A stretch of DNA of 64,000 nucleotides. Origin: Candidatus Omnitrophota bacterium. Lineage in GTDB: Bacteria; Omnitrophota; Gorgyraeia; 2-01-FULL-45-10. Both the position numbers and the translations under genes were made by a program. Shown in pieces: positions 10,637-59,141 of this stretch. The first letter of the stretch is position 1; the number at the start of each line of letters is the position of its first letter. Where the stretch lies: the NCBI GenBank assembly GCA_041650805.1, contig JBAZKM010000006.1, positions 17,837 through 81,836 of the forward strand, written 5' to 3'. The notes under the pieces were generated by a model. The model ran no database searches. It had not been told where the DNA came from and was given only the letters and a program-made list of their open reading frames with translations.

Positions 10637-13600
10637 ATGAACTACATAATGACCAGCAGGATATATTTCCGGGCAATTGCTATCCTTATAGCATCATCGA
10701 TGCTCTTACAGGACGCTGCCTTTGCGCTCTCTCCCGCGTCCAGGTTTAAACCGATAGCGTCTGCCGGAGAAGAGGCGGCCCTTCGAGGATCATTCAGGGA
10801 AGGCGCCTCAACCGCGATAATTTTGACTACGATCGCCCACCACCTAAAACTCGGCGTATCCCAGCACACCCTTATCCCCGAACTGAAGAAGATCATATCC
10901 GCATCGGACCTTGCGGCGATAAAGGCGAAAGACCCTGTCCTTGCAGGCTGCGAGATCGATGAGCTTTCTTACGATGGCCCAAATAAGATCTACTCTCTTC
11001 CGATATACCGTGACGGAATAAAGTCCTTGCAATATAGATTCTACCTTGCCGAGAAGCCGCTGGAGAAGCGCGACAGCCGTATCCTCGCCGCGAGCGGCGA
11101 AGGGGAGCTTAGCGTTTATATGACGATCGAGCCGGCCGGAGCTGCGAGCCCCGGGCCACAAGCTGCTACGGAAGAAGACGACCTGGCAGATCTCAAAACA
11201 TGGCTTAAGGGAAGATCCGGCTTAGAGCTTGCGGTTGGATTATTGAAGATAGAGTCGGGAGGATTTACGGAAGATGAGCGCGTCCGCGCTATAGTGGACG
11301 GTATATACGAAGCCGGCGCGTGGCCGGAAGAGGCATTCCCGGGGCCCGGGAGAGAATTGACGGCGGAATATCTGCCCTTAATGGAAGAGAACGAGTCATT
11401 CGCTTCAAATATCCCGGCGATCCTGAATGGCGAAGAGAATTATTCCGTCCCCCTGCATCATTTTATCCCTGAAGGGAAATTGGGAAAGGTCCTGAAGAGG
11501 ATAACAAATGCCATGCGCATGACACCGCGCCACCTCTTCATCCCGCGCCCTATGCAGTTATTGGCTTATAAAGACAATGCGCAGCCTATAGGATATTCCC
11601 AGACGATCTCACAGCCGTCGCTTGTGGCGATGATCCTGGCGTTCCTCGATATAAAAGAAGACGAAAGGGTCCTTGAGGTAGGCGCCGGGAGCGGTTGGCT
11701 CTCTGCAGTGATGGCCCGCCTTGCCCGCGATGTGAAAGCGGTCGAGATAATACCTCAGCTTACCGCGCGCGCAAGGAGGACGATAAAAGCACTGGGCTTA
11801 AAAAATGTAGAGATCATGCAGGCCGGCGGGACGCTGGGCTATCCTCCCGGGGGCCCGTATGATGTCATAGTCGTTTCGGCCGGCGCGGGAAGCGAAGATG
11901 CGCCCGAGGTCCTGGCGGACCAGCTGGCCGTGAACGGCCGTATGATAATCCCCGTTTACAATAAGGAGATGTCGGCTGAACGCAATGAGACGATCTACGA
12001 CCTGACATTATTCACCAGGAAGAAGGCCCGGCTCTGGGGCGATCCGAGGTTGGTCAAGATCGGAGTTGTGCAGTACAGCTACTTCGTTCCGCTGATAGAG
12101 AAGACGCCCGGCGAGCCGAAGCCCCGCTCCCTCGGCGCGGCCGCGGCGGACGGGCCGGAGTTTGGGGATAAGATACCGGTCGTAGAGTCCCCGGTCGACG
12201 GTCCAAGGTCCACAAAATCGTCAGGTCCCGAGGGTGAGTTGCCCAAGCCCCCGCCCTTTATGGAAGAGACGATCTCCGCGCTGGAGAGGGCAGGCGGTAA
12301 ATGGACGAAGGCGGCCGATGATCTTGGCATAAGCAGACAGGACTTTTCTAAAAGGATAAAGGCGATAGGAAGGGCCGCTTACGAATTGGGCGACGAGGCC
12401 ACATTTGCCCGGCTCGATAGGGCGCACATATCATTGCCGTCCTTTACGGAAGAGACGATCTCCGCGCTGGAGAGGACGGGCGGTAACATGACCAGGGCCG
12501 CCGGGATCCTTAGCGTATCCGAGTCAGACGTCTCATACAGGGTAAAGACGATAAGAAATACCGCTTCCAGATCGGGCGACAAAGCCACGCTTGCCCGCCT
12601 CAATAGGGCGCTCGTATCATTACCGTCCTATACGGAAGATACGATAGCCGCACTGGATAGGGCAGACGGTAACCAGACGAAGGCGGCCGGTTACCTTGGT
12701 ATAAGAAGAGAGGCCTTTTTTAAAAGGATGGTAACGATCAGAAAGGCCGCTTCCAAATTGGGCGACGAGGCCACACTTGCCCGCCTCAATAAGGCGCGCA
12801 TATCATTACCGCCCTTTACGGAAGAGACGATCTCCGCGCTGGAGACGGCAGGCGGTAGTCAGGCAAAGGCCGTCGGCACCCTTGGCGTATCCGATTCAGA
12901 CGTATCCTACAGGACAAAGGTTATAAGAAAGGCCGCTTCCGAGAAAGGCGATGAGGCCACGCTTGCCCGCCTCAATAGGGCGCTCGTATCATTACCGTCC
13001 TATACGGAAGATACGATAGCTGCGCTGGAAAAGACAGACGGTAACATGACCAGGGCCGCCGCCGTTCTCGACATATCCAAGGTGGCCCTCACATACAGGG
13101 TCGGAAAGATAATAAAGGCCGCTTCCGGGAAAGGCGATGAGGCCACGCTTGCGCGGCTTAATGGGGTGCTCAAAAAGCGTAAAGGACCCGGGCGGCGTCC
13201 CCGCTCCCTCGGCGCGGCCGCGGCGGACGGACCGGAGTCCGGAGGCACGGCCATGGGCCGGATGCTTGCGCCGACAACATTCAGCTATCCCGGCGAGGCC
13301 GCCGGAGTTTATATTGTGGTGACAGAGGAAGCCGATAAGGCGGCCAACGAAGGGCTTCACTACATGAAAGTCGAAATTGACTATAACGATTATGCGAGGC
13401 CTGTCATTCTTAAGATGGAAGAACCGGCAGGGGTGAGCGGTAAGAATGTCCGTGATCTGATAGTTCAATTCATCGAACAAAAAGGCACCGAGTTTGAGGA
13501 TGGGCAGTTGAGCCACGATTATTTTAAGTCAGGGCTTCGGGAAGATATCGCGAATATTCTAAAGAGAAATTCCGCCGCAACAGGCATACAACGCATTATC

Positions 13601-16600
13601 GTGAGCGGCAACTACGAGGTGTATGAAGAGATCGTGCTGGAGGATGACCGGTCGAGCGAGGAAGAGAGGAAGGCCATTGCCGGGAGGATGGAGAGAGAGA
13701 TGCTTGGCACCTATTTCCTAATCTTCCACAAACACCTTAAGGATGAGGCGGGGTCGGATATCGTAAAACATGAGGTCTATGAGTTCAGGCATAGGGACCG
13801 CCAGATCGTGGAGAGGGCTATCGTATGGCGGGACAGGTCGGTTCCCGCGGAAGAAGATCTGGCCGCGATGATAAAAGATGACAGGACGAATTTCCTGGAT
13901 AATCTGGCGGCCCTTAAAAATGCTCCCATTACTACGCCGGAGAAGCTGCGCGAGAGGCCAGGCAGGATTCCGCCCGAAGCGTCCGGCCAGATAGGAATAC
14001 CGGGGCTATTGGACAGGATACGGAATTCGGTCTCTGCGGAAGATATCGAGATGCGGATACTGGAGGCAAGGTCGGAGATAGAGCTCGGGAAGATGACCGT
14101 AGAGGAATTTGCGGAAGCGCTCCTGGAGTTTGCAAATAGCGATGGCAGAGTTACGGAAAAGGCATATAGAGTTCTCGGCTCATTGCCATTACCGGATGAA
14201 ATGAAGACAAGATTTTTCTTCGTGAATTCGCTTTTGGAATGGGCGAGACAGACCGAAGAGGGCAAGGAGGCATTCCCGGTCCAACCGGTATGGAATGCGG
14301 ATGACACTATGCTCGGCAAACCCGATGAAAGAGGTGAGGTCGTTTCTCTGACCCCGGAAGTGGCGGTACTGCTTGACAGGGCGATGCATTATCCGGTCGA
14401 CATCTTTATGGAGGCGGTCCGAAGGCGTACAAATATCAGGCGGATGTCATCAGAATGGCAGTTTATCCGGAAGCTGCGGTGCGTAAGCGGATTTATCGTG
14501 TCGGAAGAGGCCGCCCAGGAATTCACTGCGCTGACAGATGACGGCAGGAGAAAGATCATGGGCGTATATGAGGAATATTCGAAAGCGGCGCTGCCGTTAC
14601 AATACGAGGCAGACCTTATCTCATATGATAACCTAACGCCGGCAGGTCATGACAGGTATGGTGATCTATTTGACCAATCTTTCTTCGGAAAGGCATCGGG
14701 TTCTCTGTTCTATTTTGCTGCCCGGGATTGTGCTGCTATGCGGGACGAGATCAAGGCGATCGATATGAGAATAGGCTATGAATCTTTCAATGCATCACGC
14801 ATGGCCGCCGCTATGGCCAATATAAAAAAGGGTCGTGCCGATATCGCGATAGGGCAATACAGGGCGGTTCTTGAGAAAGTGCCGTATTTTGCGGCAAAAG
14901 TGGCCAGGGATCTCGCGGATCTTATCATCGCGGAGGGAGAACGGCAGCTCGGGCCGGATGTGACCGTAGCCGGTGTGGTACGTCTGGTTGCGCTTGCCCT
15001 GCAGAAAGAAGGCGTCACCGATGAGTTCGACAGGTTACGGGCTCAGAGCCCTCAGGAGAAATGGCTCGCCGGCCTCGAAGACGAAGTCAGGAGGACGGGA
15101 GGACGCGTTAAGCTTACGATACCCCTGCGCACGCCAAAAGGGACGATAGATTCGCTGCTGGTGCATGACAGAGTATTCGCCCCGGACCATACGAGCGAAT
15201 ATCTGATAGCTGCTCTCGATGAGAATAACTTTATCAGAGAGGGGATGGAGGTCGGCGTGATCGGCGCCGGTTCCGGATATGATACGATCTTTGCGGCGAA
15301 CGACGTCGGTCCTAACGGGCACGTCGAGGCGACAGACAGAGGTGAGGGTTGGGCGGTCGCAAATGCCAGGGCCAATGTGAAGGATAGCGGTTTAAGTGAA
15401 CGGGCCAATATCTCCGTAAGAGACGGGTTGAATGGCCTGGGCAGATTTGACGTCATCATATCCAATTGTCCCGAAGTGTTGGAAGACGAAGTACCGATAG
15501 ATTCCATTATGAGCGCCGGTTTCATCTACCGCGCCGGTTTTGAAAGGATAATGAGATCTATGCGAGAGCACCTGAAGCCGGGCGGATTCGCCCTGGTCAG
15601 GCTCTTCAAGTCCGGTTATTATGACGAATTCTTTGATGAGGCAGGGTTTGATATAGAAGAGATAACGGTCCCGCGGCTCGATGAAAAGGCGGAAGAGGAG
15701 TATAGAGGGCAGGTCGTCTATAAACTTACGCCGAGGCCCACGGAGAGTGATGCGATAGCCGCATTCAATGCCTTCGATTCAGGCTTGGCGGCCACGGCGG
15801 ACAATTGCGAGATAGAGCGCGACTATACAGGCCATATCAATGTGACGTGGCGCCTCACGGATAAGGCGGCCGGCAGGAGATTCATCGTACAGAAACTGAA
15901 TACCATATTCGATATAGACGCCATAGGCCACAACCTGACGGTCCTGGAAGATACCCAGGCCAGGGCCGGCGAATTCCTGCCGGATCACTGGCAAAAGGTG
16001 AGTTACCTTGACAGAAAAGACGGAGGAGGCAAGATCTATTACGACGGGGCTGGCATGGCATGGCGCGTCATGGACTTCATACCGGGTGATATACTTATAT
16101 ATAGCTCATTCAGCGAGGTGCCCGAAGCAGACAGACAGTACGCAGCCCGTTCCCTGGGCGAGGCGATAGCCATATTCGGCAGGATGGTCGCGGACGTCCC
16201 GCAGGATTCGTGGCGAAACCCGCTTCCCAACTTTCACAATGCCGGATATCACCGCGGTTATCTTGACGCCATTCTGCGGGGAGAGGAGACGGTATTAAGT
16301 TTAAGCCACGATACCTCCAGAAAAGTAAGATTACAGGGCGCCTTCATGGCGAGATATAAAGACCGTGTAGACGCGCTCATGGCCAAGGTGCGGGAGAGAG
16401 ACGGACTTGCGGCATCCCTGAACGACCTCGGTAAGGCGCTGACCCATGGCGACACCAAGATAAATAATGCCGTCTTCGCCCGTGACGCGCAGGGCCGGAT
16501 ACGCTGTATATCACTGATAGACCTCGATACCATACAGGTGGGCGGCCTCCTGGACGATCTCGGTGACGCCTTACGTTCGGCCGGCAACCCGGCCGGCGAA

Positions 16601-17629
16601 GCGCCCGAGGATATAAATAGCGTGACCATAGATATGGAGGTAGTGAATGACATAATAGACGGATATCTGGATAAGACAGGAGAATTTTACGGCGCGGATA
16701 GGGCCGCAGAATTGCGGGGAGAGGCCGTAACGGCGTTCAAACAATTCCTCTATGTCCAATGTATCAGGTTCTTCGCGGATTCTCTCGTTGGTAACAGATA
16801 CTTTAAACCGGGGCCCGGCCAATCGGAAGATATTAACCTCTACAGGGCGGAGGTGCAGATGCGCGCCCTCGAGGAACTCGAGAAGATAGAGGGACGAAGG
16901 ATGAGGGATGAAAAACGACCGGAGGAAGCCCGGGAAGCGACGATGCTGACCGATAGGATACGGCTAATGGCGCATGCGGCGGAGGAGAAGAACGAGACTA
17001 TAGTGATAGGCCTTGAATCGAATGAGTGGATCCCTCCGCTCCAGCGGAAGCAAAACCTCATCCAGCCGCTCGTGAACGAGTTCACCAACCGCCTGGAGGC
17101 GGAATTGAAGAAGGCCGGTCATGATAACGTCAAGATAGTCGGCGGCGCAGGAGATGACCTGGCCCAGAACGTCCTGGCCAAGATCGCAGAATATAATGTG
17201 AAACCGCATAACGCTTTTGTAATAGCAAGCGAGGTGACCGTAAACAATAAAGATCTTGAGAAATTTAAAGAATTGATCGGCAGGGCGTTCATCGCAGGCA
17301 TGGATACTTCAAAACTGCAGGCGGAGTCGGGGGAGGAGCTTAATTACATACGGCTCTGTGAGATGGTCCGCATGGCGATGGAGCTTGCCGAATTCGTATC
17401 TAAGGCAAAAGAGAGAAGAGAGAGAGGTGAGCTGGCCCAGGAAGAGCTTGCCGGGGTAGTCAGCGAAATGCTCCGGGCGTTCAGAAAGAACCATCCCCAT
17501 ATAGGTATCGACGATAAAGAGATGCTCGAAAATGGCATGGTACTCTTCATGCCGGATATAGAGCCCAAAGATCCCGGTGAACTGAAAATTATCTACGACT
17601 CGCAGCAGACGGCGCTCATCGCCGCGTAA
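10637..17629 (+). CDS. Giant (2,330 aa) multidomain protein. Domain order: signal peptide; PCMT-like methyltransferase; 5 tandem Fis-type HTH-like repeats; class I SAM methyltransferase (HemK-like); APH/protein-kinase-like phosphotransferase domain; unassigned C-terminal region.
   Basis: Hydrophobic N-terminus. PCMT motifs (ISQPSLVA, LEVGAGSGWLSAVMA, DVIVVSAG) at about nt 11505-11960. Five 60-aa repeats (TEETISALERxGGNxTxAAxxLGxSxxDxSYRxKxIRKAAS) at about 12244-13150. MTase motif I/IV (VIGAGSGYD; ISNCP) at about 15180-15620. Kinase-like HGDTKINNAVF ... LIDLD at about 16440-16530. Confidence 0.75.
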   Translation: MNYIMTSRIYFRAIAILIASSMLLQDAAFALSPASRFKPIASAGEEAALRGSFREGASTAIILTTIAHHLKLGVSQHTLIPELKKIISASDLAAIKAKDPVLAGCEIDELSYDGPNKIYSLPIYRDGIKSLQYRFYLAEKPLEKRDSRILAASGEGELSVYMTIEPAGAASPGPQAATEEDDLADLKTWLKGRSGLELAVGLLKIESGGFTEDERVRAIVDGIYEAGAWPEEAFPGPGRELTAEYLPLMEENESFASNIPAILNGEENYSVPLHHFIPEGKLGKVLKRITNAMRMTPRHLFIPRPMQLLAYKDNAQPIGYSQTISQPSLVAMILAFLDIKEDERVLEVGAGSGWLSAVMARLARDVKAVEIIPQLTARARRTIKALGLKNVEIMQAGGTLGYPPGGPYDVIVVSAGAGSEDAPEVLADQLAVNGRMIIPVYNKEMSAERNETIYDLTLFTRKKARLWGDPRLVKIGVVQYSYFVPLIEKTPGEPKPRSLGAAAADGPEFGDKIPVVESPVDGPRSTKSSGPEGELPKPPPFMEETISALERAGGKWTKAADDLGISRQDFSKRIKAIGRAAYELGDEATFARLDRAHISLPSFTEETISALERTGGNMTRAAGILSVSESDVSYRVKTIRNTASRSGDKATLARLNRALVSLPSYTEDTIAALDRADGNQTKAAGYLGIRREAFFKRMVTIRKAASKLGDEATLARLNKARISLPPFTEETISALETAGGSQAKAVGTLGVSDSDVSYRTKVIRKAASEKGDEATLARLNRALVSLPSYTEDTIAALEKTDGNMTRAAAVLDISKVALTYRVGKIIKAASGKGDEATLARLNGVLKKRKGPGRRPRSLGAAAADGPESGGTAMGRMLAPTTFSYPGEAAGVYIVVTEEADKAANEGLHYMKVEIDYNDYARPVILKMEEPAGVSGKNVRDLIVQFIEQKGTEFEDGQLSHDYFKSGLREDIANILKRNSAATGIQRIIVSGNYEVYEEIVLEDDRSSEEERKAIAGRMEREMLGTYFLIFHKHLKDEAGSDIVKHEVYEFRHRDRQIVERAIVWRDRSVPAEEDLAAMIKDDRTNFLDNLAALKNAPITTPEKLRERPGRIPPEASGQIGIPGLLDRIRNSVSAEDIEMRILEARSEIELGKMTVEEFAEALLEFANSDGRVTEKAYRVLGSLPLPDEMKTRFFFVNSLLEWARQTEEGKEAFPVQPVWNADDTMLGKPDERGEVVSLTPEVAVLLDRAMHYPVDIFMEAVRRRTNIRRMSSEWQFIRKLRCVSGFIVSEEAAQEFTALTDDGRRKIMGVYEEYSKAALPLQYEADLISYDNLTPAGHDRYGDLFDQSFFGKASGSLFYFAARDCAAMRDEIKAIDMRIGYESFNASRMAAAMANIKKGRADIAIGQYRAVLEKVPYFAAKVARDLADLIIAEGERQLGPDVTVAGVVRLVALALQKEGVTDEFDRLRAQSPQEKWLAGLEDEVRRTGGRVKLTIPLRTPKGTIDSLLVHDRVFAPDHTSEYLIAALDENNFIREGMEVGVIGAGSGYDTIFAANDVGPNGHVEATDRGEGWAVANARANVKDSGLSERANISVRDGLNGLGRFDVIISNCPEVLEDEVPIDSIMSAGFIYRAGFERIMRSMREHLKPGGFALVRLFKSGYYDEFFDEAGFDIEEITVPRLDEKAEEEYRGQVVYKLTPRPTESDAIAAFNAFDSGLAATADNCEIERDYTGHINVTWRLTDKAAGRRFIVQKLNTIFDIDAIGHNLTVLEDTQARAGEFLPDHWQKVSYLDRKDGGGKIYYDGAGMAWRVMDFIPGDILIYSSFSEVPEADRQYAARSLGEAIAIFGRMVADVPQDSWRNPLPNFHNAGYHRGYLDAILRGEETVLSLSHDTSRKVRLQGAFMARYKDRVDALMAKVRERDGLAASLNDLGKALTHGDTKINNAVFARDAQGRIRCISLIDLDTIQVGGLLDDLGDALRSAGNPAGEAPEDINSVTIDMEVVNDIIDGYLDKTGEFYGADRAAELRGEAVTAFKQFLYVQCIRFFADSLVGNRYFKPGPGQSEDINLYRAEVQMRALEELEKIEGRRMRDEKRPEEAREATMLTDRIRLMAHAAEEKNETIVIGLESNEWIPPLQRKQNLIQPLVNEFTNRLEAELKKAGHDNVKIVGGAGDDLAQNVLAKIAEYNVKPHNAFVIASEVTVNNKDLEKFKELIGRAFIAGMDTSKLQAESGEELNYIRLCEMVRMAMELAEFVSKAKERRERGELAQEELAGVVSEMLRAFRKNHPHIGIDDKEMLENGMVLFMPDIEPKDPGELKIIYDSQQTALIAA
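12244..13150 (+). repeat. Five in-frame tandem 180-bp repeats inside the giant gene. They are bracketed by 40-nt near-identical direct repeats at 12121-12161 and 13199-13239.
   Basis: Stretches of about 65 nt are identical between repeat units (e.g. 12583-12650 vs 12958-13023). The flanking sequence ccccgctccctcggcgcggccgcggcggacgg(g/a)ccggagt occurs on both sides. Confidence 0.85.
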
Positions 17630-24075: not shown

Positions 24076-24487
24076 GGGGGTGACAGGCATCGACCTAGGT
24101 AAATACGGTAAGGGTGGCATGTAGAGGTTGCTAGGAGGCCTCTTTAAACACCTGGCAAAAATCAAATGCTGACAACGTAAAAGTGCCAGCTACGGTAAAC
24201 GAGCTTCTGGCTACCATGCAAGTGGTACCGGGGCCCGTTCTACCACAAGCGTTACCTTTATAAGGTAACCCGTTAACCGGCCTCTTCCTGCGGGGCCGGA
24301 TTAGCGTCGCTAGCAGGATGGTCTCTCCGGTTTATCCTTCGGCCGGTGAGATGAGATCGTCAAAGGATACCTTCGCGAAATTCCTCCTATTGAAGTTCGG
24401 GAAGGGAACTCAAAGATTAGGATAAACATGTAGATGCCTTTATTGTGGTATCTGGGGACGCGAGTTCGAATCTCGCCACCTCCACCA
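24076..24487 (+). ncRNA. ssrA: tmRNA (SsrA), one-piece
   Basis: Starts GGGGGUGACAGG...CGAC. Ends with a tRNA-like T-arm/acceptor: GGACGCGAGUUCGAAUCUCGCCACCUCCACCA. Lies immediately downstream of smpB. Confidence 0.85.
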
Positions 24488-31376: not shown

Positions 31377-31453
31377 CGGGGCGTAGCGCAGTTGGCTAGC
31401 GCGCTTGGTTTGGGACCAAGAGGTCCTCGGTTCGAATCCGAGCGCCCCGACCA
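31377..31453 (+). tRNA. tRNA-Pro (anticodon TGG), CCA encoded
   Basis: CGGGGCG acceptor pairs with CGCCCCG. Anticodon stem-loop CUUGG-UUUGGGA-CCAAG. T-loop GGTTCGAATCC. Confidence 0.85.
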
Positions 31454-31761
31454 TAAGCCTGCCATTTGTTTACGTGTAGGCAGGCTATCCCCGCGAGTAT
31501 ATCGGAAATTTCGGAGAAATTTCCGATATGATTACGAGCGGGGATGATCTCACCGGCTGATGACGGTGATGAAAGTCACCTTCATCTTCTGGTCAGACGG
31601 ATTTCGAAGAAATCCGGCAGCCGCTTAGAAGATGGGGAAGCAGAGCCGGTAGGAAGTAGTCTTGTTCTTCCGAAAGCACTCTGCGAATTTCGTATATCGC
31701 AGGGCGATATCCGAAATTCAATGTTTCGCTTTCGGAAGGAAATTTGCAGAGCAAATTTCAC
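31454..31761 (+). other. 308-nt highly structured intergenic region between tRNA-Pro and tRNA-Arg (unassigned ncRNA or recombination/regulatory element)
   Basis: Several long hairpins. One has a perfect 13-bp palindrome (ATATCGGAAATTT-cggag-AAATTTCCGATAT) nested inside an ATCCCCGC/GCGGGGAT stem. Others include AGCCTGCC/GGCAGGCT and CGGATTTC/GAAATCCG. Confidence 0.4.
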
Positions 31762-31838
31762 GTCCCTGTAGCTCAGCTGGATAGAGCATCTGCCTTCTAA
31801 GCAGAGGGTCGCCTGTTCGAATCAGGCCAGGGACGCCA
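31762..31838 (+). tRNA. tRNA-Arg (anticodon TCT), CCA encoded
   Basis: GTCCCTG/CAGGGAC acceptor. Anticodon loop CUUCUAA. T-loop GTTCGAATC. Confidence 0.85.
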
Positions 31839-31986
31839 TCCGCCTTCGCAATCAACGCGGAAAGCGGCAAGGTGCTTCGGCGGATTTTATCCGCCATAGC
31901 CATCATGCTATAATATGCTGAAGGCGACGGCGGATGTGCCCGCCGAAGCATTCTGTTGCGCTCCGTTGAATGCGAAGGCGGGCCAC
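31839..31986 (+). repeat. Copy A of a ~148-nt MITE-like structured repeat with imperfect terminal inverted repeats, abutting the tRNA-Arg CCA end
   Basis: About 95% identical to 58920-59067. Termini TCCGCCTTCGCAATCAACG ... CGTTGAATGCGAAGGCGG are inverted. Internal long stem GCTTCGGCGG...CCGCCGAAGC. Contains TATAAT. Confidence 0.8.
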
Positions 31987-31996
31987 AAATAGGTGT

Positions 31997-32242
31997 ATGC
32001 ACTACGTTTACATCCTAAAAAGCCTTAAAGTAAGAGATAAAATATACGTTGGTATGACCAATAACCTGAACCGTCGTCTCAAAGAGCACGATGAAGCAGC
32101 AAGTGATAATTACACATATCGCCATCGTCCCTGGAAACTCGAAACATATATTTCATTTCAAAGTAATTTGGCTGCTAAGGAATTCGAAGCTTATTTAAAA
32201 ACAGGCTCAGGTAGAGCATTTATTAGACGACATCTTGTTTAA
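31997..32242 (+). CDS. Small GIY-YIG nuclease-domain protein (UPF0213/YhbQ-like)
   Basis: Motifs YVYILKS...YVGMTNNLNRRLKEH (GIY...YIG...R...H/E). Starts 10 nt after repeat copy A. Confidence 0.7.
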   Translation: MHYVYILKSLKVRDKIYVGMTNNLNRRLKEHDEAASDNYTYRHRPWKLETYISFQSNLAAKEFEAYLKTGSGRAFIRRHLV

Positions 32243-32410: not shown

Positions 32411-33418
32411 ATGAGATTACGAAAATTGAAGTATGCTTTGGTTGCTTTAGCGGTGCTCTTCATATGCGGAGACGTCTGCGCGTTCACGTTCACGAAAGTC
32501 GACAAGGAGGAGCGCAAAAAGCAGGAGATAGACGATCTCCAGAAGAGGTTCGAATGGTGGCCGACCGACGCCCAGCCGCAACCGGTGAAGGACGAGAAGC
32601 GCGGCGGATACTGGTGGATGCCGCGCACCCCGGGCACGACGAGACCGTGGGGTAACCGCGGTTATATTTACGTATATAAGATCATATACGATTACAAAGA
32701 GGAAGAGCTACCGCCGGCTAAGGCCTCGGAGCCGCGCCCGTCGCTCCTCATCAAGAAGATCATAAAGAACGTCAAGGTCTACTTCGATTTCGATAAGGCG
32801 GAACTTCGCGACGATGCCGTATCGGTGCTGGAAGGGGCCGTCGCCTCTTTGCGCCGGAACCCGGAGACGAGCATCCTGATCACCGGTAACTGCGATATCC
32901 GCGGATCCGAACAGTATAACGAGAAACTCGGCCGGCGCCGCGGCGACAGCGTAAAGAAGTTCATGCTCGACAGCGGTGTCCCGGAGAAGAGGGTGATGAT
33001 CGTAAGCCGCGGTAAGCTCGATGCCATAGCGCCGGTGACGGACCTCGCCGGCATGGCAAAAGACAGGAATGCCCAGTTCATGATAGCAGAGGTGGAAGAG
33101 GTCATGATCCCTGCGCCGAGCACGCAGGGTGAGGCCGAAGGGGCCGTCCCGTCCCAGGAGGCGGAACAGATCCCCGAAGGTGCGACGCAGATCGAGGAAG
33201 GGAAGTATCTCATAGAAAAGGAAGAGATAGTCGAGTCGGAGGTCAAGGTCTCCACTAAGACGTACGTCACGAAGAAGGGCGATACGCTCTGGAAGATCGC
33301 AGAGAGGGAGCTCGGCGAGGGCAGAAGGTGGAATACAATATACGAGCTCAATAAGGATAAGATCAAGAACCCGAATAAGCTGAGCGCAGGGAAGAGGCTC
33401 GTTATTCCGGTCGAATAG
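32411..33418 (+). CDS. OmpA-family peptidoglycan-binding protein with C-terminal LysM domain, secreted
   Basis: Signal peptide. OmpA_C-like motif (YFDFDKAELRDDAVSVLE...NCDIRGSEQYNEKLGRRRGDSV). LysM (YVTKKGDTLWKIAE...GKRLVIP). GAGGTGGG RBS. Confidence 0.75.
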   Translation: MRLRKLKYALVALAVLFICGDVCAFTFTKVDKEERKKQEIDDLQKRFEWWPTDAQPQPVKDEKRGGYWWMPRTPGTTRPWGNRGYIYVYKIIYDYKEEELPPAKASEPRPSLLIKKIIKNVKVYFDFDKAELRDDAVSVLEGAVASLRRNPETSILITGNCDIRGSEQYNEKLGRRRGDSVKKFMLDSGVPEKRVMIVSRGKLDAIAPVTDLAGMAKDRNAQFMIAEVEEVMIPAPSTQGEAEGAVPSQEAEQIPEGATQIEEGKYLIEKEEIVESEVKVSTKTYVTKKGDTLWKIAERELGEGRRWNTIYELNKDKIKNPNKLSAGKRLVIPVE

Positions 33419-33424
33419 TTTTGC

Positions 33425-33497
33425 GGTGGGCGTAGCTCAGTCCGCCTTCGCAATCAACGCGTAATAGATTAGGTGCTTCGGCGGATTTCGCACGAAT
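33425..33497 (+). repeat. 16-nt duplicate of the tRNA-His 5' end (33425-33440) followed by a ~57-nt 5' fragment of the MITE-like repeat (partial copy B)
   Basis: ggtgggcgtagctcag is identical to tRNA-His positions 1-16. It is followed by tccgccttcgcaatcaacgcg...ggtgcttcggcggattt, matching the first part of copies A and C. Confidence 0.7.
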
Positions 33498-33505
33498 AGT
33501 TTTAT

Positions 33506-33584
33506 GGTGGGCGTAGCTCAGCTTGGATAGAGCACCTGGCTGTGGCCCAGGGTGTCGCCGGTTCAAATCCGGTCGCCTACCCCA
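33506..33584 (+). tRNA. tRNA-His (anticodon GTG) with G-1 and discriminator C, CCA encoded
   Basis: G-1 followed by GTGGGCG paired with CGCCTAC (one G-U). Anticodon loop CUGUGGC. T-loop GGTTCAAATCC. Confidence 0.8.
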
Positions 33585-33621
33585 ATCATTAACCTCTAAT
33601 AGACATAGGTTAGAGGTTCTA

Positions 33622-33657
33622 GGCTATGATCAGTAACCCTGATCATAGCCTTTTTTA
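33622..33657 (+). terminator. Rho-independent terminator after tRNA-His
   Basis: GGCTATGATCAG-taacc-CTGATCATAGCC 12-bp perfect stem, then TTTTTT. Confidence 0.8.
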
Positions 33658-33887
33658 TCTCTCGATGTCCCTAGGACTTAGGGCATTATTAAATTCCTAG
33701 GAACTTACAAATTTCGGCTTCGGTTTTGTGTGTATATAAACTCGCCTATTCCGCGCCACTATAGACCAAAATCGCCCAATTCCTATCTTATATACTGACG
33801 GCTATATAATGCGAATATCGTCGGTATTTGGAGTATTACTGCGGGGCTGAAAGGTCATTATATAGGACTAGAGACGAGAGGAGAGCT

Positions 33888-35489
33888 TTAGGCGAGCCCT
33901 GCGGTTAATGTCTGCCACATCTTTTTCTGCTTATTCCAGGATATTTCTCTGGTGATCTCATTCATTTTGTATTCGGGGATCAGTTGGATGATGTTATTAT
34001 CTGAAAAGAGAATCTCTTCCTGTATGCTAGGCGCGAGCATCAGCATATTTAGAAGAAGATACATTTTAGTGTGCGTTATATTGAGCCAATCAGCCACCTG
34101 TTTTAAATCTTTAGCCTTGCCGTCTTCAAGTAATCCTTGTATTTGATACGCTAATATTAAAAATTGGCGCAGCTTAGGCTCCTTTAGGATCGCCACAGCT
34201 TTAGGTGTCTCACGTACAAGGCTTGTTGCCAAATCTACATTGAATTCGTAAATTTTAGTAGAGCTTTGCAGTGTTATAAAGACCTTTTTACTCTCGGCTT
34301 CATAAAGTACAACTTTTACTAAGGCGAGAATCGTTTCACGTTGCCTCTCAAATGGCAGGTTCTCCCACGTTCCTGTAGCTATGTTTCTGTTGTCGGAGAT
34401 CTGGCGCAGACACAGCATGATCTGATTCTCGAATCTTAATGCGTTAACGGTCTTTGAAGGGCAATTCTCATAGCCTCGCTTTTGCGCGTTTAAACAAACG
34501 TAGTAAAAGTATTTCCATTTATGATTTTTGGTAGAGTATGCGTATATCATAGAGCTATCGCATGGCTTGCAGCGGACTATTTGGCTTAATAGGCCGATGT
34601 TTTTATGCGGTTTTACTTTTTTCTCGCGTCTATTCTCGTCCAAAATAGTTTGGACCTTATTAAAGACTTCTTCGCTGATTATCGCTTCATGCTGTCCCTG
34701 GTACACCTGCTTGCCTTTGTAGTTAATCTTGCCGATATAGAGCATATTACGCAGCATTAGCTGCATGCTCGTAGCCTTAAATGGAACACCGCCTGACATC
34801 TTACCCTTCCTTAGGTATTGTTTGGTTCGATAACCCCTTTTGTTGAGGATCATGGCTACGGAAAGGAGGGAGCGTTCCTTGGTATAAAGGTCAAACATTT
34901 CTCGGATAATTCGAGCCTCAGCCTCATTGATTACGATCTTATGATTTTCCTTATCGAGGTTATAGCCTAAGGCTGGCCTACCGCCCATCCACTGGCCTTT
35001 CTTGCGCGCAGCGCCCATTTTGTCGCGTGTGCGCTCGGATATGATCTCACGCTCGAACTGTGCGAAAGAGAGCAGAATATTGAGCGTAAGTCGTCCCATT
35101 GACGTATTTGTGTTAAAATGCTGCGTTACGGATACGAAGGCTACGTTATTTTGATCAAAAAATTCCAGCAGCTTACTAAAATCGAGCAATGAGCGCGATA
35201 GTCTGTCTACTTTGTAGACCACCACGCATCCTATTTTCCCAGACTTGATGTCTATTATCAGTTTTTGCAGCGAAGGACGTTCAGTAGTTGCGCCTGAAAA
35301 CCCTGCATCGTCATAGTGATCAGCTAACGTGATCAATCCTTCGGATTTTTGGCTTAGTATATAGCTTTCTGCTGCCTCGCGCTGCGCGTCAAGCGAGGTG
35401 AATTCCTGCTCCATGCCGTCATTCGTAGAAACACGCGTATAGATGGCGCAGGGGATAGGCTTCTTATCTTGTGTTAATTTGTCATCCAT
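33888..35489 (-). CDS. Large serine recombinase (resolvase/invertase N-terminal domain, recombinase domain, zinc-ribbon)
   Basis: Catalytic N-terminus (CAIYTRVSTNDG ... YKVDRLSRSL). 533 aa. C-terminal Cys cluster (CKPCDS...C). Confidence 0.85.
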   Translation of the reverse strand: MDDKLTQDKKPIPCAIYTRVSTNDGMEQEFTSLDAQREAAESYILSQKSEGLITLADHYDDAGFSGATTERPSLQKLIIDIKSGKIGCVVVYKVDRLSRSLLDFSKLLEFFDQNNVAFVSVTQHFNTNTSMGRLTLNILLSFAQFEREIISERTRDKMGAARKKGQWMGGRPALGYNLDKENHKIVINEAEARIIREMFDLYTKERSLLSVAMILNKRGYRTKQYLRKGKMSGGVPFKATSMQLMLRNMLYIGKINYKGKQVYQGQHEAIISEEVFNKVQTILDENRREKKVKPHKNIGLLSQIVRCKPCDSSMIYAYSTKNHKWKYFYYVCLNAQKRGYENCPSKTVNALRFENQIMLCLRQISDNRNIATGTWENLPFERQRETILALVKVVLYEAESKKVFITLQSSTKIYEFNVDLATSLVRETPKAVAILKEPKLRQFLILAYQIQGLLEDGKAKDLKQVADWLNITHTKMYLLLNMLMLAPSIQEEILFSDNNIIQLIPEYKMNEITREISWNKQKKMWQTLTAGLA

Positions 35490-55346: not shown

Positions 55347-56114
55347 ATGCCTATATTAAGAAAGATGTGCGCTGCTATGGCTTTAGCGAGTCTGTTGATT
55401 TGTGCAGAGGTTTATGCAGCGTCTGTTAGTGTTAAAGACGGCAACATTTTTTATATTAATAATGGAAAGAGCATGCAAATCACATCAAGTAATCATGATA
55501 ATAACCCTATGCTACATCCAGATGGCAGGTGGATATACTTCATTCGTGGCTCTGAAGGTAAATGGGTTGGGGAAAAGTTCTATCCACGCGAAGGGGCAGT
55601 AGTTAAAGATGGGTTACTTCATGATGAGCTCTGGCGCGTTAAAACTGATGGTACCGGCGCAATTATGTTGTTTCGCTCAGAGCACGCAGCTATTGACGGT
55701 CCGGATCCAGACTACTCTGTTGCGCATATAAATAGTATGCAGCTTTCACCAGATGGCGATAAGGTATATTTCGAAGCCTCTGAGTGGGTGACATCAGATG
55801 CTTTATATGTAATGAACGCAGACGGTTCAAATGCAAAGATGTTAGGCCCTGGTAATGATACAAAGATAATTTTATCAGCTAGAACATTCGATGATCGAGA
55901 GAGTGACTATAAGGGGTACATTATCACAAATCAACACAGATATTTCCTATACGGTGGTTCTTATGATTGGTATTATTTGTTCACGCCTGACCTAAAAAAA
56001 GAAATAGCGCCTTTGGGAGATGATTTTGATTATTTTACAGAAATGGGTGATATAATATATACAGATCATAGTGAAAAGACCATTCAAAGAAGCGAAAAGA
56101 TAAAGGGCTTATGA
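55347..56114 (+). CDS. Secreted TolB-like beta-propeller (PD40-repeat) protein
   Basis: Signal peptide. Repeated DG(R/D)xxYF / SPDGDKVYF / MNADGSNAKML motifs typical of PD40 repeats. Confidence 0.5.
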   Translation: MPILRKMCAAMALASLLICAEVYAASVSVKDGNIFYINNGKSMQITSSNHDNNPMLHPDGRWIYFIRGSEGKWVGEKFYPREGAVVKDGLLHDELWRVKTDGTGAIMLFRSEHAAIDGPDPDYSVAHINSMQLSPDGDKVYFEASEWVTSDALYVMNADGSNAKMLGPGNDTKIILSARTFDDRESDYKGYIITNQHRYFLYGGSYDWYYLFTPDLKKEIAPLGDDFDYFTEMGDIIYTDHSEKTIQRSEKIKGL

Positions 56115-56584
56115 AAGAATATTGTCACTATCGGATGATTCTTTTAAATAGAAAAATATCATTCCTAGAATACAAAACCAAGGGCGAGGCATTTGCTAAA
56201 ACCGAAACATTTCTACGGCCAGTTACATCCAAAAGCTTACCCAAGATTTATATTATAAAAAATCGCGGTGAAATCATATATATAGGGATTGCGTCACAAA
56301 GCATTGCAAACCGGCTGCGTTATGGGTTTAGTGCTAAGGGGAGAGGTGGATACCACGGATATCGATGGAGGGATTTAGTCGATAAAATTGATCTTCTGGT
56401 GTGGTGTTTTCCAGGCCAATCTATGCATTATGTAGAATCGATTGAAGCAGAAATAGTTTTTGCATTGCGTCGCGATACTGGTAAATGGCCAGCATTTCAG
56501 ACAGAGATCCATTTTCATAATGTGACAGATGAAGAAAAGAAGCTGGCTTCTTCAATTTATAGTGAAGCGTCCAAAACTGCGTAG
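56111..56584 (+). CDS. Hypothetical protein with a GIY-YIG-like motif
   Basis: KIYIIKNRGEIIYIGIASQSIANRLRYGF resembles the GIY...YIG...R core. Weak. Confidence 0.35.
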   Translation: MKEYCHYRMILLNRKISFLEYKTKGEAFAKTETFLRPVTSKSLPKIYIIKNRGEIIYIGIASQSIANRLRYGFSAKGRGGYHGYRWRDLVDKIDLLVWCFPGQSMHYVESIEAEIVFALRRDTGKWPAFQTEIHFHNVTDEEKKLASSIYSEASKTA

Positions 56585-58695: not shown

Positions 58696-58919
58696 TATGT
58701 TGAAATGTCCACCTATTTGAAGAGGACATTAGCTATCAATTTGTATCTAAAAGAGTTGCATCATTCCTGGACAAAAAAGACAGGACAAATCGGACATTTT
58801 TCATAGGGACCATACTATGAGAATAGCGGAATTTCATTGATAACAAGGGTATTTCGGCTATAATAGATACTTGAGGATTTACATAGGTCTGTCCCCAGGT
58901 GAGAAGGGGAGCGACCCCA

Positions 58920-59067
58920 TCCGCCTTCGCATTCAAGGCGTAAAGTGACAGAATGCTTCGGCGGATTTTATCCGCCATAGCCATCATGCTATAATATGCT
59001 GAAGGCGACGGCGGATGAGCCCGCCGAAGCATTCTGTTGCGCTCCGTTGAATGCGAAGGCGGGCCAC
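58920..59067 (+). repeat. Copy C of the ~148-nt MITE-like structured repeat
   Basis: Near-identical to 31839-31986 with about 6 substitutions. Same terminal inverted repeats. Confidence 0.8.
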
Positions 59068-59070
59068 TAA

Positions 59071-59141
59071 ACTTCGTCGGATTGACTAATAATCTCGATC
59101 GACGCATCGAAGAACACGACAAAACCTCGAGCGCACATTAA
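59071..59141 (+). pseudogene. 5'-truncated remnant of a GIY-YIG gene (homologue of 31997-32242)
   Basis: Translates to FVGLTNNLDRRIEEHDKTSSAH*, matching YVGMTNNLNRRLKEHDEAAS of the intact copy. The first ~25 codons and the start codon are absent. Confidence 0.6.

What the first reader, a model, noticed from the sequence alone, without database searches (positions are those of the whole stretch)
33425..33584. tRNA-His preceded by a 16-nt duplicate of its own 5' end plus a fragment of the MITE-like repeat
The sequence ggtgggcgtagctcag (33425-33440) repeats tRNA-His nt 1-16. It is followed by ~57 nt matching the 5' part of the structured repeat, then the complete tRNA-His.

This looks like the scar of an insertion/excision, or a recombination event within the tRNA gene that regenerated an intact tRNA, as integrative elements do. 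It ties the repeat family to tRNA-targeted integration. It also sits at the left edge of the AT-rich island.
Basis: seen in the sequence. Interest (0 to 1): 0.5.

Follow-up and report, generated by a model that had tools for sequence, protein, structure and literature searches.

The report
Hairpin repeat inserted into tRNA-His
A 52-base hairpin repeat common in Omnitrophota genomes sits inside the start of a histidine tRNA gene, flanked by a 29-base duplication that leaves a dead stub upstream and an intact gene downstream; the same layout at a threonine tRNA in two other Omnitrophota suggests a recurring process, and it is separate from the neighbouring mobile island.

Summary
The 16-mer duplicate is real (33425-33440 = 33506-21), but it is only part of the repeat. 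The true direct repeat is 29 nt (33412-40 vs 33493-521, 27/29). It includes the native stop codon of the upstream OmpA-LysM gene, so the duplication arose in place.

The 52 nt between the copies are not a fragment. They are one complete unit of a ~45-nt two-stem hairpin motif that occurs singly in intergenic DNA of many Omnitrophota MAGs. The two ~145-nt "MITE-like" copies in the window are inverted doublets of this unit, each followed by a GIY-YIG gene.

The layout stub + hairpin + spacer + whole tRNA recurs at tRNA-Thr(CGT) in two other Omnitrophota contigs that share no flanking genes. A relative has tRNA-His with no stub and no hairpin.

The 25-kb AT-rich island has a large serine recombinase and defence genes. 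It starts at least 107 nt downstream of tRNA-His. No matching half-site lies near 58.7-58.9 kb.

Best reading: the hairpin element inserted into the tRNA D-arm region with a long target duplication that regenerated the gene. The insertion mechanism is inferred. The island link is not supported.

No Rfam family or paper found describes the element. Interest is moderate.

The parts
33412..33440 (+). Direct-repeat copy 1 (29 nt). It holds the last codons and TAG stop of OmpA-LysM, then TTTTGC, then the dead tRNA-His 5' stub (33425-33440 = G-1 to nt 15).
   Evidence: OmpA-LysM homologues end ...IP(V/I)E*, so GAATAG is native to that gene.
33441..33492 (+). One complete unit of the Omnitrophota hairpin motif: TCCGCC-TTC-GCA...TGC-TTC-GGCGGA plus a TTTCGCA tail. 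It lies between the two repeat copies.
   Evidence: The predicted fold is a basal stem, a 3x3 internal loop and a second stem (-14.9 kcal/mol; z-score only -0.97, so this copy's fold is not distinguishable from shuffles).
33493..33521 (+). Direct-repeat copy 2 (CGAATAGTTTTAT plus the first 16 nt of the functional tRNA-His).
   Evidence: upstream-part similarity: 0 of 2000 shuffles reach the observed score.
33506..33584 (+). Intact tRNA-His(GTG), with encoded G-1 and CCA.
   Evidence: ARAGORN. (Rfam tRNA, 58.2 bits).
33585..33691 (+). Conserved 3' flank of tRNA-His: two hairpins, including a terminator-like site at 33621-33651. It is homologous to relative L144, and the island must begin after it.
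   Evidence: 79.6% identity over 191 nt, 33502-33691.
32411..33418 (+). OmpA-LysM gene. Its native stop codon lies inside the duplicated 29 nt.
31762..31838 (+). tRNA-Arg(TCT). The hairpin doublet A starts at the base after its CCA.
   Evidence: 100% identical to the tRNA-Arg of L142.
31839..31982 (+). Doublet A. It consists of a motif unit (+) at 31839-31884, a middle hairpin, and a motif unit (-) at 31939-31982. Together they form a ~145-nt hairpin.
   Evidence: (-92.8 kcal/mol, z -9.6).
31997..32242 (+). Small GIY-YIG nuclease gene (81 aa) directly after doublet A.
   Evidence: (PF01541, 4e-15).
58920..59063 (+). Doublet B, just beyond the right edge of the AT-rich island. It has 1 mismatch to A in the 3' 100 nt and about 8 mismatches in the first 47 nt.
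59070..59141 (+). Truncated remnant of a GIY-YIG gene after doublet B.
   Evidence: 12/20 identical, 19/20 similar to residues 17-36 of the intact protein.
33888..35489 (-). Large serine recombinase at the left end of the ~25-kb AT-rich island (about 33.7-58.9 kb). It is a neighbour of the tRNA-His rearrangement and not part of it.

Best explanation
A 52-bp unit of a dispersed, REP-like hairpin element of Omnitrophota was inserted into the D-arm coding region of tRNA-His, between nt 15 and 16. The insertion came with a 29-bp duplication of the target: the OmpA-LysM stop codon, a 6-nt spacer, and tRNA G-1 to nt 15.

The downstream copy of the duplicate is joined to the rest of the gene and gives an intact tRNA-His. 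The upstream copy is a non-functional 5' stub fused to the foot of the hairpin.

Shown:
- The X-E-X anatomy (duplicate, element, duplicate).
- The duplicate arose in situ.
- E is a whole family unit.
- The layout recurs at tRNA-Thr.
- A relative has an unoccupied tRNA-His.
- The arrangement is independent of the island.

Inferred: the mechanism. The most likely route is a break or widely staggered cut in the conserved D-arm sequence GTAGCTCAG(Y)TGG. Repair would then be by fill-in or template switching that copied a hairpin unit from another locus. Events that happened to duplicate the 5' end survive because they restore an essential tRNA.

The small GIY-YIG nuclease genes that accompany the hairpin doublets next to tRNA genes are candidates for making the break. 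This is speculative.
For: 1. The exact 16-mer is present twice. The repeat extends 13 nt upstream through GAATAG, and similarity of that upstream part was reached by 0 of 2000 shuffles.

2. All 60 OmpA-LysM homologues inspected end IP(V/I)E or similar, so the stop region is native. The second copy of it must be an in-place duplicate.

3. The intervening 45-52 nt match a motif found singly in at least 11 other loci from Omnitrophota MAGs. It has conserved stems and a variable loop.

4. L007 has tRNA-Thr(CGT) preceded by its own first 19-20 nt, then the motif, then a spacer. L007 was found by the motif alone. L134 has the same layout. Their flanking genes are unrelated.

5. Of 19 tRNAs in all sequence held, only the tRNA-His locus (scored in both the window and its duplicate assembly L001) and L007's tRNA-Thr have a 5' duplicate within 300 nt. 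No tRNA has any other partial copy.

6. L144, a relative with 68% identical RdgB, has tRNA-His with an AT-rich upstream region and neither stub nor motif. Homology to the window starts 4 nt before the tRNA.

7. The motif or a covarying variant starts at the base after CCA of tRNA-Arg (window), tRNA-Pro (L142) and tRNA-Thr (L007). The family therefore has an affinity for tRNA gene borders.
Against: - None of about 12 other singlet copies has flanking direct repeats of 8 nt or more. A long target duplication is therefore not the family's normal insertion signature.
- The duplicate lengths differ: 29 nt against 19-20 nt.
- No transposase or RAYT gene is present in the window.
- The GIY-YIG protein is a bare 81-aa catalytic domain with no DNA-binding domain.
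- No strain of this species with an empty site was found. The only unoccupied comparison, L144, is a distant relative in a different gene context.
- In the Thr loci the stub is 20/20 identical in both lineages, while the motif loop is about 35% diverged and the spacer is scrambled. A neutral scar should have decayed, so something more (selection or conversion) is needed.
Confidence: 0.5

Rival explanations
1. The stub plus hairpin is a selected leader module of the tRNA transcript. It could act as a terminator or insulator after the upstream gene, or as a processing or alternative-folding element. The stub can replace the true 5' strand in the acceptor and D stems, which would give a tRNA with the hairpin displayed in an expanded D-loop. 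On this view the arrangement is kept because it does something, whatever its origin. This is compatible with an insertional origin.
For: - In L007 and L134 the stub is identical to the tRNA over 20/20 nt, although the spacers (28 vs 40 nt) are barely alignable (shuffle p about 0.05) and 7 of 45 motif positions differ.
- Both Thr copies share a derived 3' stem, GGCGAGAC, that pairs with the tRNA-derived G(G). This extends the hairpin into the stub.
- Direct repeats of 20-29 nt bracketing a hairpin should be lost easily by slippage (established knowledge), yet the layout persists in two lineages.
- Minimum-energy folds of both precursors use the stub for the acceptor stem.
- Elsewhere the motif usually lies in the same orientation as its neighbours, often 18-45 nt before start codons of unrelated genes. 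It is therefore probably transcribed.
Against: - There are only three loci, representing two independent tRNAs.
- In the window the two mismatches fall next to the stub, and 16/16 identity is not significant on its own.
- Whole-region folds are not more stable than shuffles (z -1.1 and -1.7).
- Use of the stub in the predicted folds follows automatically from the duplication.
- No promoter-like or terminator-like site was found in the insert.
- Stub identity could instead come from gene conversion or transient misalignment with the nearby true copy.
Confidence: 0.2
2. One reading: the duplicate is an att-type scar of an integrative element, either the adjacent island or one now deleted, that recombined within tRNA-His and carried a replacement for the displaced part of the gene.
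For: - tRNA-His lies at the left edge of a 25-kb low-GC island that has a recombinase, an HTH_17 excisionase-like gene and defence genes.
- In the Thr loci the repeat begins at tRNA nt +1. This is what an element supplying a replacement 5' end would give.
Against: - The repeats bracket 52 nt, not the island.
- The island starts at least 107 nt 3' of the tRNA.
- The recombinase is a large serine recombinase, a class that leaves no long repeats (and established knowledge).
- No half-site or tRNA remnant lies at 58.7-58.9 kb.
- The His repeat includes the host gene's own stop codon, which an incoming attP would not carry.
- L007 has no integrase nearby.
Confidence: 0.07
3. An ancestral tandem pair tRNA-hairpin-tRNA, in which the hairpin followed the first CCA as it does at tRNA-Arg, lost nt 16-77 of the first copy by deletion.
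For: - The hairpin often starts exactly after a tRNA CCA.
- Tandem tRNA genes are common in bacteria (established knowledge).
Against: - It needs deletions that end exactly at the hairpin's first base and start in the D-loop, independently for His and Thr. There is no microhomology at the junctions.
- The His repeat extends 13 nt upstream, into the OmpA-LysM stop codon.
- It requires more steps than insertion with duplication.
Confidence: 0.08
4. An assembly or binning artefact created the 81-nt repeat structure.
For: The source is a metagenome-assembled genome.
Against: - A second assembler's contig (Logan, L001) is identical across the region.
- The structure is shorter than a typical short read.
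- The same architecture is found in two unrelated datasets.
Confidence: 0.02

Closest known systems
REP elements and REPIN doublets (RAYT-associated repetitive extragenic palindromes; PMC3733652, PMC8049555)
   Same: - A short imperfect palindrome dispersed in intergenic DNA.
- It occurs as singlets and as inverted doublets that fold into a long hairpin.
- It is inherited at orthologous sites in related genomes. L035 and L076 carry it in near-identical upstream sequence; their aminoacyl-tRNA synthetase gene context was confirmed only for L035.
   Different: - No GTAG or CGTC tag.
- No RAYT gene in the window.
- A two-stem architecture with a conserved 3x3 TTC/TTC internal loop.
- Doublets are paired with GIY-YIG genes.
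- A marked association with tRNA gene borders.
- Two cases of insertion inside a tRNA gene with a 20-29-nt duplication, which REP/IS200-type transposition does not produce.
tRNA-targeting integrative elements (partial tRNA duplicate marking the far end of a prophage or island; examples in PMC3119063)
   Same: A partial copy of the tRNA gene lies next to an intact, regenerated gene.
   Different: - Classical cases duplicate the 3' part, bracket kilobases of element DNA and use tyrosine integrases.
- Here a 5' part is duplicated and only 52 nt are bracketed.
- The duplicate contains host-specific sequence, and the neighbouring island uses a serine recombinase.
Free-standing GIY-YIG homing endonucleases in tRNA clusters (phage T4 SegB, PMC2330249)
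   Same: - A GIY-YIG gene sits between tRNA genes.
- SegB recognises a conserved tRNA sequence (the T-psi-C motif) and cuts tRNA genes. A tRNA-directed break is therefore a known activity of this enzyme class.
   Different: - The proteins here are 81-92 aa catalytic domains without a DNA-binding domain.
- No cleavage data exist for them.
- The implied target would be the D-arm, not the T-arm.
- SegB homing gives co-conversion, not stub duplication.
Bacterial MITEs
   Same: A small non-coding element with inverted termini (in the doublet form) and a stable fold, present in multiple copies.
   Different: - No fixed-length target duplication at other copies.
- No parent IS identified.
- The singlet, not the doublet, is the common form.

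Membership tests
tRNA-integrating genomic island (tyrosine integrase type) | A partial tRNA copy (normally the 3' part) marks the distal end of the element, and the element lies between the two repeats. | tested here: not met
   The repeats are 81 nt apart and are 5' pieces. No tRNA-His fragment or 16-mer lies at 58.7-58.9 kb.
tRNA-integrating genomic island (tyrosine integrase type) | A tyrosine recombinase gene next to the att site. | tested here: not met
   The adjacent recombinase has Resolvase, Recombinase and Zn_ribbon_recom domains, so it is a large serine recombinase.
Large-serine-recombinase island | A serine recombinase with C-terminal recombinase and zinc-ribbon domains at the element's edge, and no long direct repeats at the junctions. 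| tested here: met
   This applies to the island only, not to the tRNA-His duplication. Exact junctions were not determined (left at or beyond 33692; right between 58696 and 58919).
REP / REPIN | A short imperfect palindrome repeated in extragenic DNA, with singlets and inverted doublets. | tested here: met
   There are 5 units in the window, as 2 doublets and 1 singlet. At least 11 singlets occur in other Omnitrophota MAG contigs, all intergenic by crude ORF calls.
REP / REPIN | A conserved GTAG or CGTC tetranucleotide tag at one end. | tested here: not met
   Units begin (A)TCCGCC and end GGCGGA(T). No such tag is seen in alignments A2-A4.
REP / REPIN | A cognate RAYT (Y1 HUH transposase) gene in the genome. 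| tested here: inconclusive
   No Y1 transposase was found among the window ORFs scanned with Pfam. The rest of the genome was not available.
MITE | Terminal inverted repeats plus a short target-site duplication of fixed length, and a related autonomous IS. | tested here: not met
   No flanking repeat of 8 nt or more at other copies. The duplicates are 29 and 19-20 nt at the tRNAs. No parent IS was seen.
Free-standing GIY-YIG homing endonuclease cassette | A GIY-YIG catalytic domain. | tested here: met
   PF01541, E = 4e-15. A 36%-identical homologue follows the same tRNA-Arg in L142.
Free-standing GIY-YIG homing endonuclease cassette | A linked DNA-binding domain, and demonstrated site-specific cleavage near the insertion site. 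| not testable with these tools
   The protein is 81 aa and Pfam detects no further domain. Cleavage needs an experiment.
Known structured RNA families (Rfam 15) | A match at or above the gathering score. | tested here: not met
   Only tRNA and tmRNA were found. Sub-threshold hits to miRNA hairpin models on the doublets are noise.

The most novel reading that the evidence does not exclude
The tRNA 5' stub plus hairpin is not a dead scar. It would be the signature of a previously undescribed Omnitrophota system in which a structured hairpin element specifically enters the conserved D-arm sequence and 3' borders of tRNA genes. The accompanying small GIY-YIG nucleases might drive this. The stub is then retained under selection as a functional leader, for example giving an alternative pre-tRNA fold or a processing or insulation signal.
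Probability: 0.2. Interest if true: 0.7.

Novelty: new variant of a known kind. Interest (0 to 1): 0.45.

Why it matters
Partial tRNA copies are routinely read as footprints of integrases. This case shows a different route to the same picture. A tiny hairpin repeat entered the 5' part of a tRNA gene, and the gene was rescued by a long local duplication.

The finding also defines an undescribed repeat family in Omnitrophota, an uncultured phylum. The family occurs as singlets, as doublets, and together with GIY-YIG genes, and it clusters at tRNA gene borders.

If the stub proves to be conserved by selection, it would point to a new kind of tRNA leader element, or to a tRNA-directed mobile hairpin. 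In practical terms, it warns against calling island boundaries from any partial tRNA repeat.

Tried and rejected
- **Orthologous OmpA-LysM loci.** I looked at L002-L004 for an empty site. Synteny is not conserved and no tRNA-His is nearby.
- **RdgB-anchored relatives.** These gave one unoccupied tRNA-His (L144) and one tRNA-Pro/Arg/GIY-YIG locus (L142), but no close relative.
- **Empty tRNA-Thr site.** I searched via the nitroreductase gene next to L007's tRNA-Thr. There was no tRNA in any of the four loci returned.
- **Other loci for the GIY-YIG protein.** An exact-protein look-up found only the same contig.
- **Genome scan with the 16-mer.** About 11 hits were true.
- **Metagenome scan for motif plus tRNA D-arm.** It gave 16 hits, of which only L134 was true.
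- **Viral contigs.** No motif was found.
- **tRNA remnant upstream of doublet B.** Nothing was significant. A weak resemblance to a tRNA-Pro 3' half has p about 0.07.
- **att-like repeats between the island junction regions.** None were found.
- **Promoter or terminator in the insert.** None were detected.
- **Extension of the Thr duplicate upstream of +1.** Not significant.
- **Covariation in the motif.** It is weak, because the copies were ascertained with an exact 16-mer. Only 2 of 13 pairs show double changes. Two variant copies with stems TTCTGC/GCAGGA and GCC/GGC add compensatory changes by eye, but MAFFT misaligned them.
- **Literature.** No paper on such an element in Omnitrophota, or on tRNA 5' stubs with hairpins, turned up.

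Full report
**Source and setting**

The window comes from a Candidatus Omnitrophota MAG. The OmpA-LysM and RdgB proteins are 100% identical to NCBI entries with that name, on a 169-kb contig.

The region reads as follows:
- RNase PH, then RdgB.
- tRNA-Pro (31377-31453).
- tRNA-Arg (31762-31838).
- A long hairpin repeat, doublet A (31839-31982).
- A small GIY-YIG gene (31997-32242).
- OmpA-LysM (32411-33418).
- The finding itself (33412-33584).
- A low-GC island of about 25 kb.
- A second long hairpin repeat, doublet B (58920-59063).
- A GIY-YIG remnant (59070-59141).
- Housekeeping genes.

**Checking the observation**

GGTGGGCGTAGCTCAG occurs at 33425-33440 and 33506-33521 and nowhere else, even with 2 mismatches allowed. 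The chance expectation is 0.02. tRNA-His(GTG) is 33507-33584, so the 16-mer is the encoded G-1 plus nt 1-15.

The repeat is longer than reported. The repeat finder gives 37 nt at 86% identity. The secure part is CGAATAGTTTT[GC/AT]GGTGGGCGTAGCTCAG: 33412-33440 against 33493-33521, 27 of 29 identical. Similarity of the part upstream of the 16-mer was reached by 0 of 2000 shuffles.

GAATAG in the first copy is the last codon and stop of OmpA-LysM. All 60 homologues I inspected end ...IP(V/I)E or close to it, so this stop region is native to the gene. Its second copy, just before the real tRNA, must therefore come from a duplication that happened at this locus after the two genes became neighbours.

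An independent Logan assembly contig (L001) is identical through the region.

**What lies between the copies**

The 52 nt at 33441-33492 align with the first 48 nt of the long repeats A and B. They are not a fragment.

A scan of species-representative genomes with a 16-mer from the repeat returned mostly chance hits. About 11 hits were real, nearly all labelled Omnitrophota MAGs, with one labelled Planctomycetia. In each, a single unit stands alone: (A)TCCGCC-TTC-GCA[W]TCAA - about 15 variable nt, often containing ATAG - RTGC-TTC-GGCGGA(T).

The predicted fold is a 6-8-bp basal stem, a 3x3 TTC/TTC internal loop, and a second stem of 3-7 bp with a variable top. For the window's own singlet the fold is weak and not distinguishable from shuffled sequence (-14.9 kcal/mol, z -0.97); the two Thr-locus copies score better (z -2.4 and -4.1).

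Long repeats A and B are two such units in opposite orientation around a middle hairpin. Together they form a ~145-nt hairpin (-92.8 kcal/mol, z -9.6). This singlet/doublet relation is the one seen between REP and REPIN elements.

Pair counts support the two stems: 88% of cells are paired, against 28-50% when the partner column is slid. Covariation is thin, because the copies were found with an exact 16-mer. Two variant copies have stems TTCTGC/GCAGGA and GCC/GGC around the same TTC loops. By eye they add compensatory changes.

No Rfam family matches. No copy was found in IMG/VR contigs.

In the other genomes the unit is intergenic. It is usually co-oriented with its neighbours, and often lies 18-45 nt before the start of unrelated genes. 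These include a class II aminoacyl-tRNA synthetase, TrpE, a response regulator, MnmG and a hyp operon. None of these copies has flanking direct repeats.

**Recurrence at another tRNA**

L007 (Omnitrophota STD1_50) was picked up by the motif alone. Its tRNA-Thr(CGT) is preceded by GCTGGCGTAGCTCAGTTGG(T), which is its own nt 1-19/20. This stub is fused to the same motif, followed by a 28-nt spacer and the whole tRNA.

A targeted metagenome scan found the same layout in L134. There the spacer is 40 nt, and the tRNA is itself interrupted in the anticodon loop by an IS30-like element.

L007 and L134 share only the stub-motif-spacer-tRNA stretch, at 78% identity over 144 nt. Their flanking genes are unrelated. 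L007 has no integrase nearby.

In both loci the stub is 20/20 identical to the tRNA. By contrast, 7 of 45 motif positions differ and the spacers barely align (shuffle p about 0.05). Both share a derived 3' stem, GGCGAGAC, which pairs with the tRNA-derived G(G). The foot of the hairpin therefore runs into the stub.

Of 19 tRNAs in all sequence I held, only the tRNA-His locus (scored in both the window and its duplicate assembly L001) and L007's tRNA-Thr have a copy of their own 5' end within 300 nt. L134's truncated tRNA-Thr is not detected by ARAGORN and is not among the 19.

**Association with tRNA borders**

The motif starts at the base after the CCA of tRNA-Arg in the window. The variant motif starts at the base after the CCA of tRNA-Pro in L142 and of tRNA-Thr in L007.

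L142 has a tRNA-Arg 100% identical to the window's. It also carries hairpins (of a different family) and a GIY-YIG gene (36% identical) right after that tRNA. L144 has neither.

**An unoccupied tRNA-His**

L144 comes from a relative with 68% identical RdgB and conserved upstream synteny. Its tRNA-His is preceded by AT-rich sequence ending ...GTTATTAT, with no stub and no motif. Homology to the window begins 4 nt before the tRNA and runs to 33691. This covers two downstream hairpins, one of them terminator-like.

**The island**

The island contains:
- a large serine recombinase (33888-35489, minus strand), a DUF2924 protein and an HTH_17 protein;
- a DrmD-like SNF2 helicase and a type III restriction-modification pair;
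- PDC-M30A, a radical-SAM protein and DUF6119;
- a ParB-methyltransferase and a terminase-like protein.

Its left junction must lie at or beyond 33692, that is 3' of the tRNA and its terminator. No direct or inverted repeat links the two junction regions. No tRNA fragment or 16-mer lies near 58.7-58.9 kb. The 5' duplication is therefore a separate event from island integration.

**Explanation**

The anatomy is X-E-X: a 29-nt local sequence, a complete 52-nt family unit, and the same 29 nt again, the second running on into an intact tRNA.

The simplest history is insertion of the unit between nt 15 and 16 of tRNA-His together with a duplication of the 29 nt to the left of the insertion point. 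That duplication regenerates the gene.

The alternative of tandem tRNA genes followed by decay needs two independent deletions with the same exact endpoints and no microhomology. An att-site scar cannot explain a repeat that contains the host gene's own stop codon, nor a 52-nt 'element'.

How the insertion happened is inferred. Other copies show no target duplication, so the long duplicates are probably not the element's regular signature. They look more like the product of a break in the D-arm sequence repaired by copying, and they are seen at tRNA genes because only gene-restoring outcomes survive.

GIY-YIG nucleases that cut conserved tRNA sequence are known (T4 SegB, PMC2330249), and small GIY-YIG genes accompany the doublets here. 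These, however, are bare catalytic domains, and nothing ties them to the D-arm.

The perfect conservation of the stub in two diverged Thr loci is not explained by a neutral scar. Either the stub is under selection (leader function, alternative pre-tRNA fold), or it is homogenised with the nearby true copy. I rate insertion with duplication at 0.5 and a selected leader role, which is not exclusive of it, at 0.2.

**Novelty**

I found no description of this repeat family, or of hairpin-linked 5' tRNA stubs, in Rfam or in the paper library.

It is best filed as a new variant of known kinds: REP/REPIN-like repeats, and partial tRNA duplications. It fails the defining tests for RAYT-type REPs (no tag, no RAYT seen), for MITEs, and for integrase att scars.

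Noticed in passing
window 33692-58900: The ~25-kb low-GC island carries a large serine recombinase, DUF2924, an HTH_17 protein, a DrmD-like SNF2 helicase, a type III methyltransferase and restriction enzyme, PDC-M30A, a radical-SAM protein, DUF6119, a ParB-methyltransferase and a terminase-like protein. It also has a second weak GIY-YIG ORF (56111-56584) and a PD-(D/E)XK protein. It looks like a defence or phage-derived island. Exact att sites were not found.
   Followed up: partly
window 10637-17629 (repeats 12251-13171): A 2330-aa ORF contains five tandem 186-nt (62-aa) repeats at 70-89% identity. 40-nt near-identical boxes lie at 12122 and 13199. No family search was run on it.
   Followed up: no
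window 24076-24487: The tmRNA lies next to smpB. ARAGORN predicts an unusually long 31-residue tag, ADNVKVPATVNELLATMQVVPGPVLPQALPL. The tag call was not checked.
   Followed up: no
window 31454-31761: The tRNA-Pro to tRNA-Arg spacer is 308 nt and is full of other, unrelated palindromes. The same spacer is 68 nt in L142, where it is one variant hairpin motif, and 7 nt in L144. This tRNA cluster accumulates hairpin DNA.
   Followed up: partly
L134 10585-11900: In this metagenome contig the tRNA-Thr that carries the stub and hairpin is also cut in its anticodon loop, after GGTTTCGTAA. An insertion encoding an IS30-like transposase (HTH_38 + rve) lies there. The 3' part of the tRNA is not within the 14-kb locus.
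   Followed up: partly
L142 5851-6078: A different palindromic repeat set, built on GTACC...GGTAC units, fills the gap between an identical tRNA-Arg and a GIY-YIG gene in a related genome. The pairing of hairpins with a GIY-YIG gene after tRNA-Arg is conserved although the hairpin family differs.
   Followed up: no
L035 1213-1254 and L076 (minus strand, about 880-930): The hairpin motif sits in near-identical upstream sequence in two different MAGs. In L035 the next ORF, 18 nt downstream, is a class II aminoacyl-tRNA synthetase (GlyRS-like N-terminus). At that site the motif appears to be vertically inherited and probably lies in the 5' UTR. The L076 downstream ORF was not scanned with Pfam.
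   Followed up: partly
window 58886-58919: The 34 nt before doublet B (GTCCCCAGGTGAGAAGGGGAGCGACCCCA) have the outline of a tRNA T-arm, acceptor 3' strand and CCA. They weakly resemble the 3' half of tRNA-Pro (p about 0.07). This may be a decayed tRNA end, but it is not significant.
   Followed up: partly
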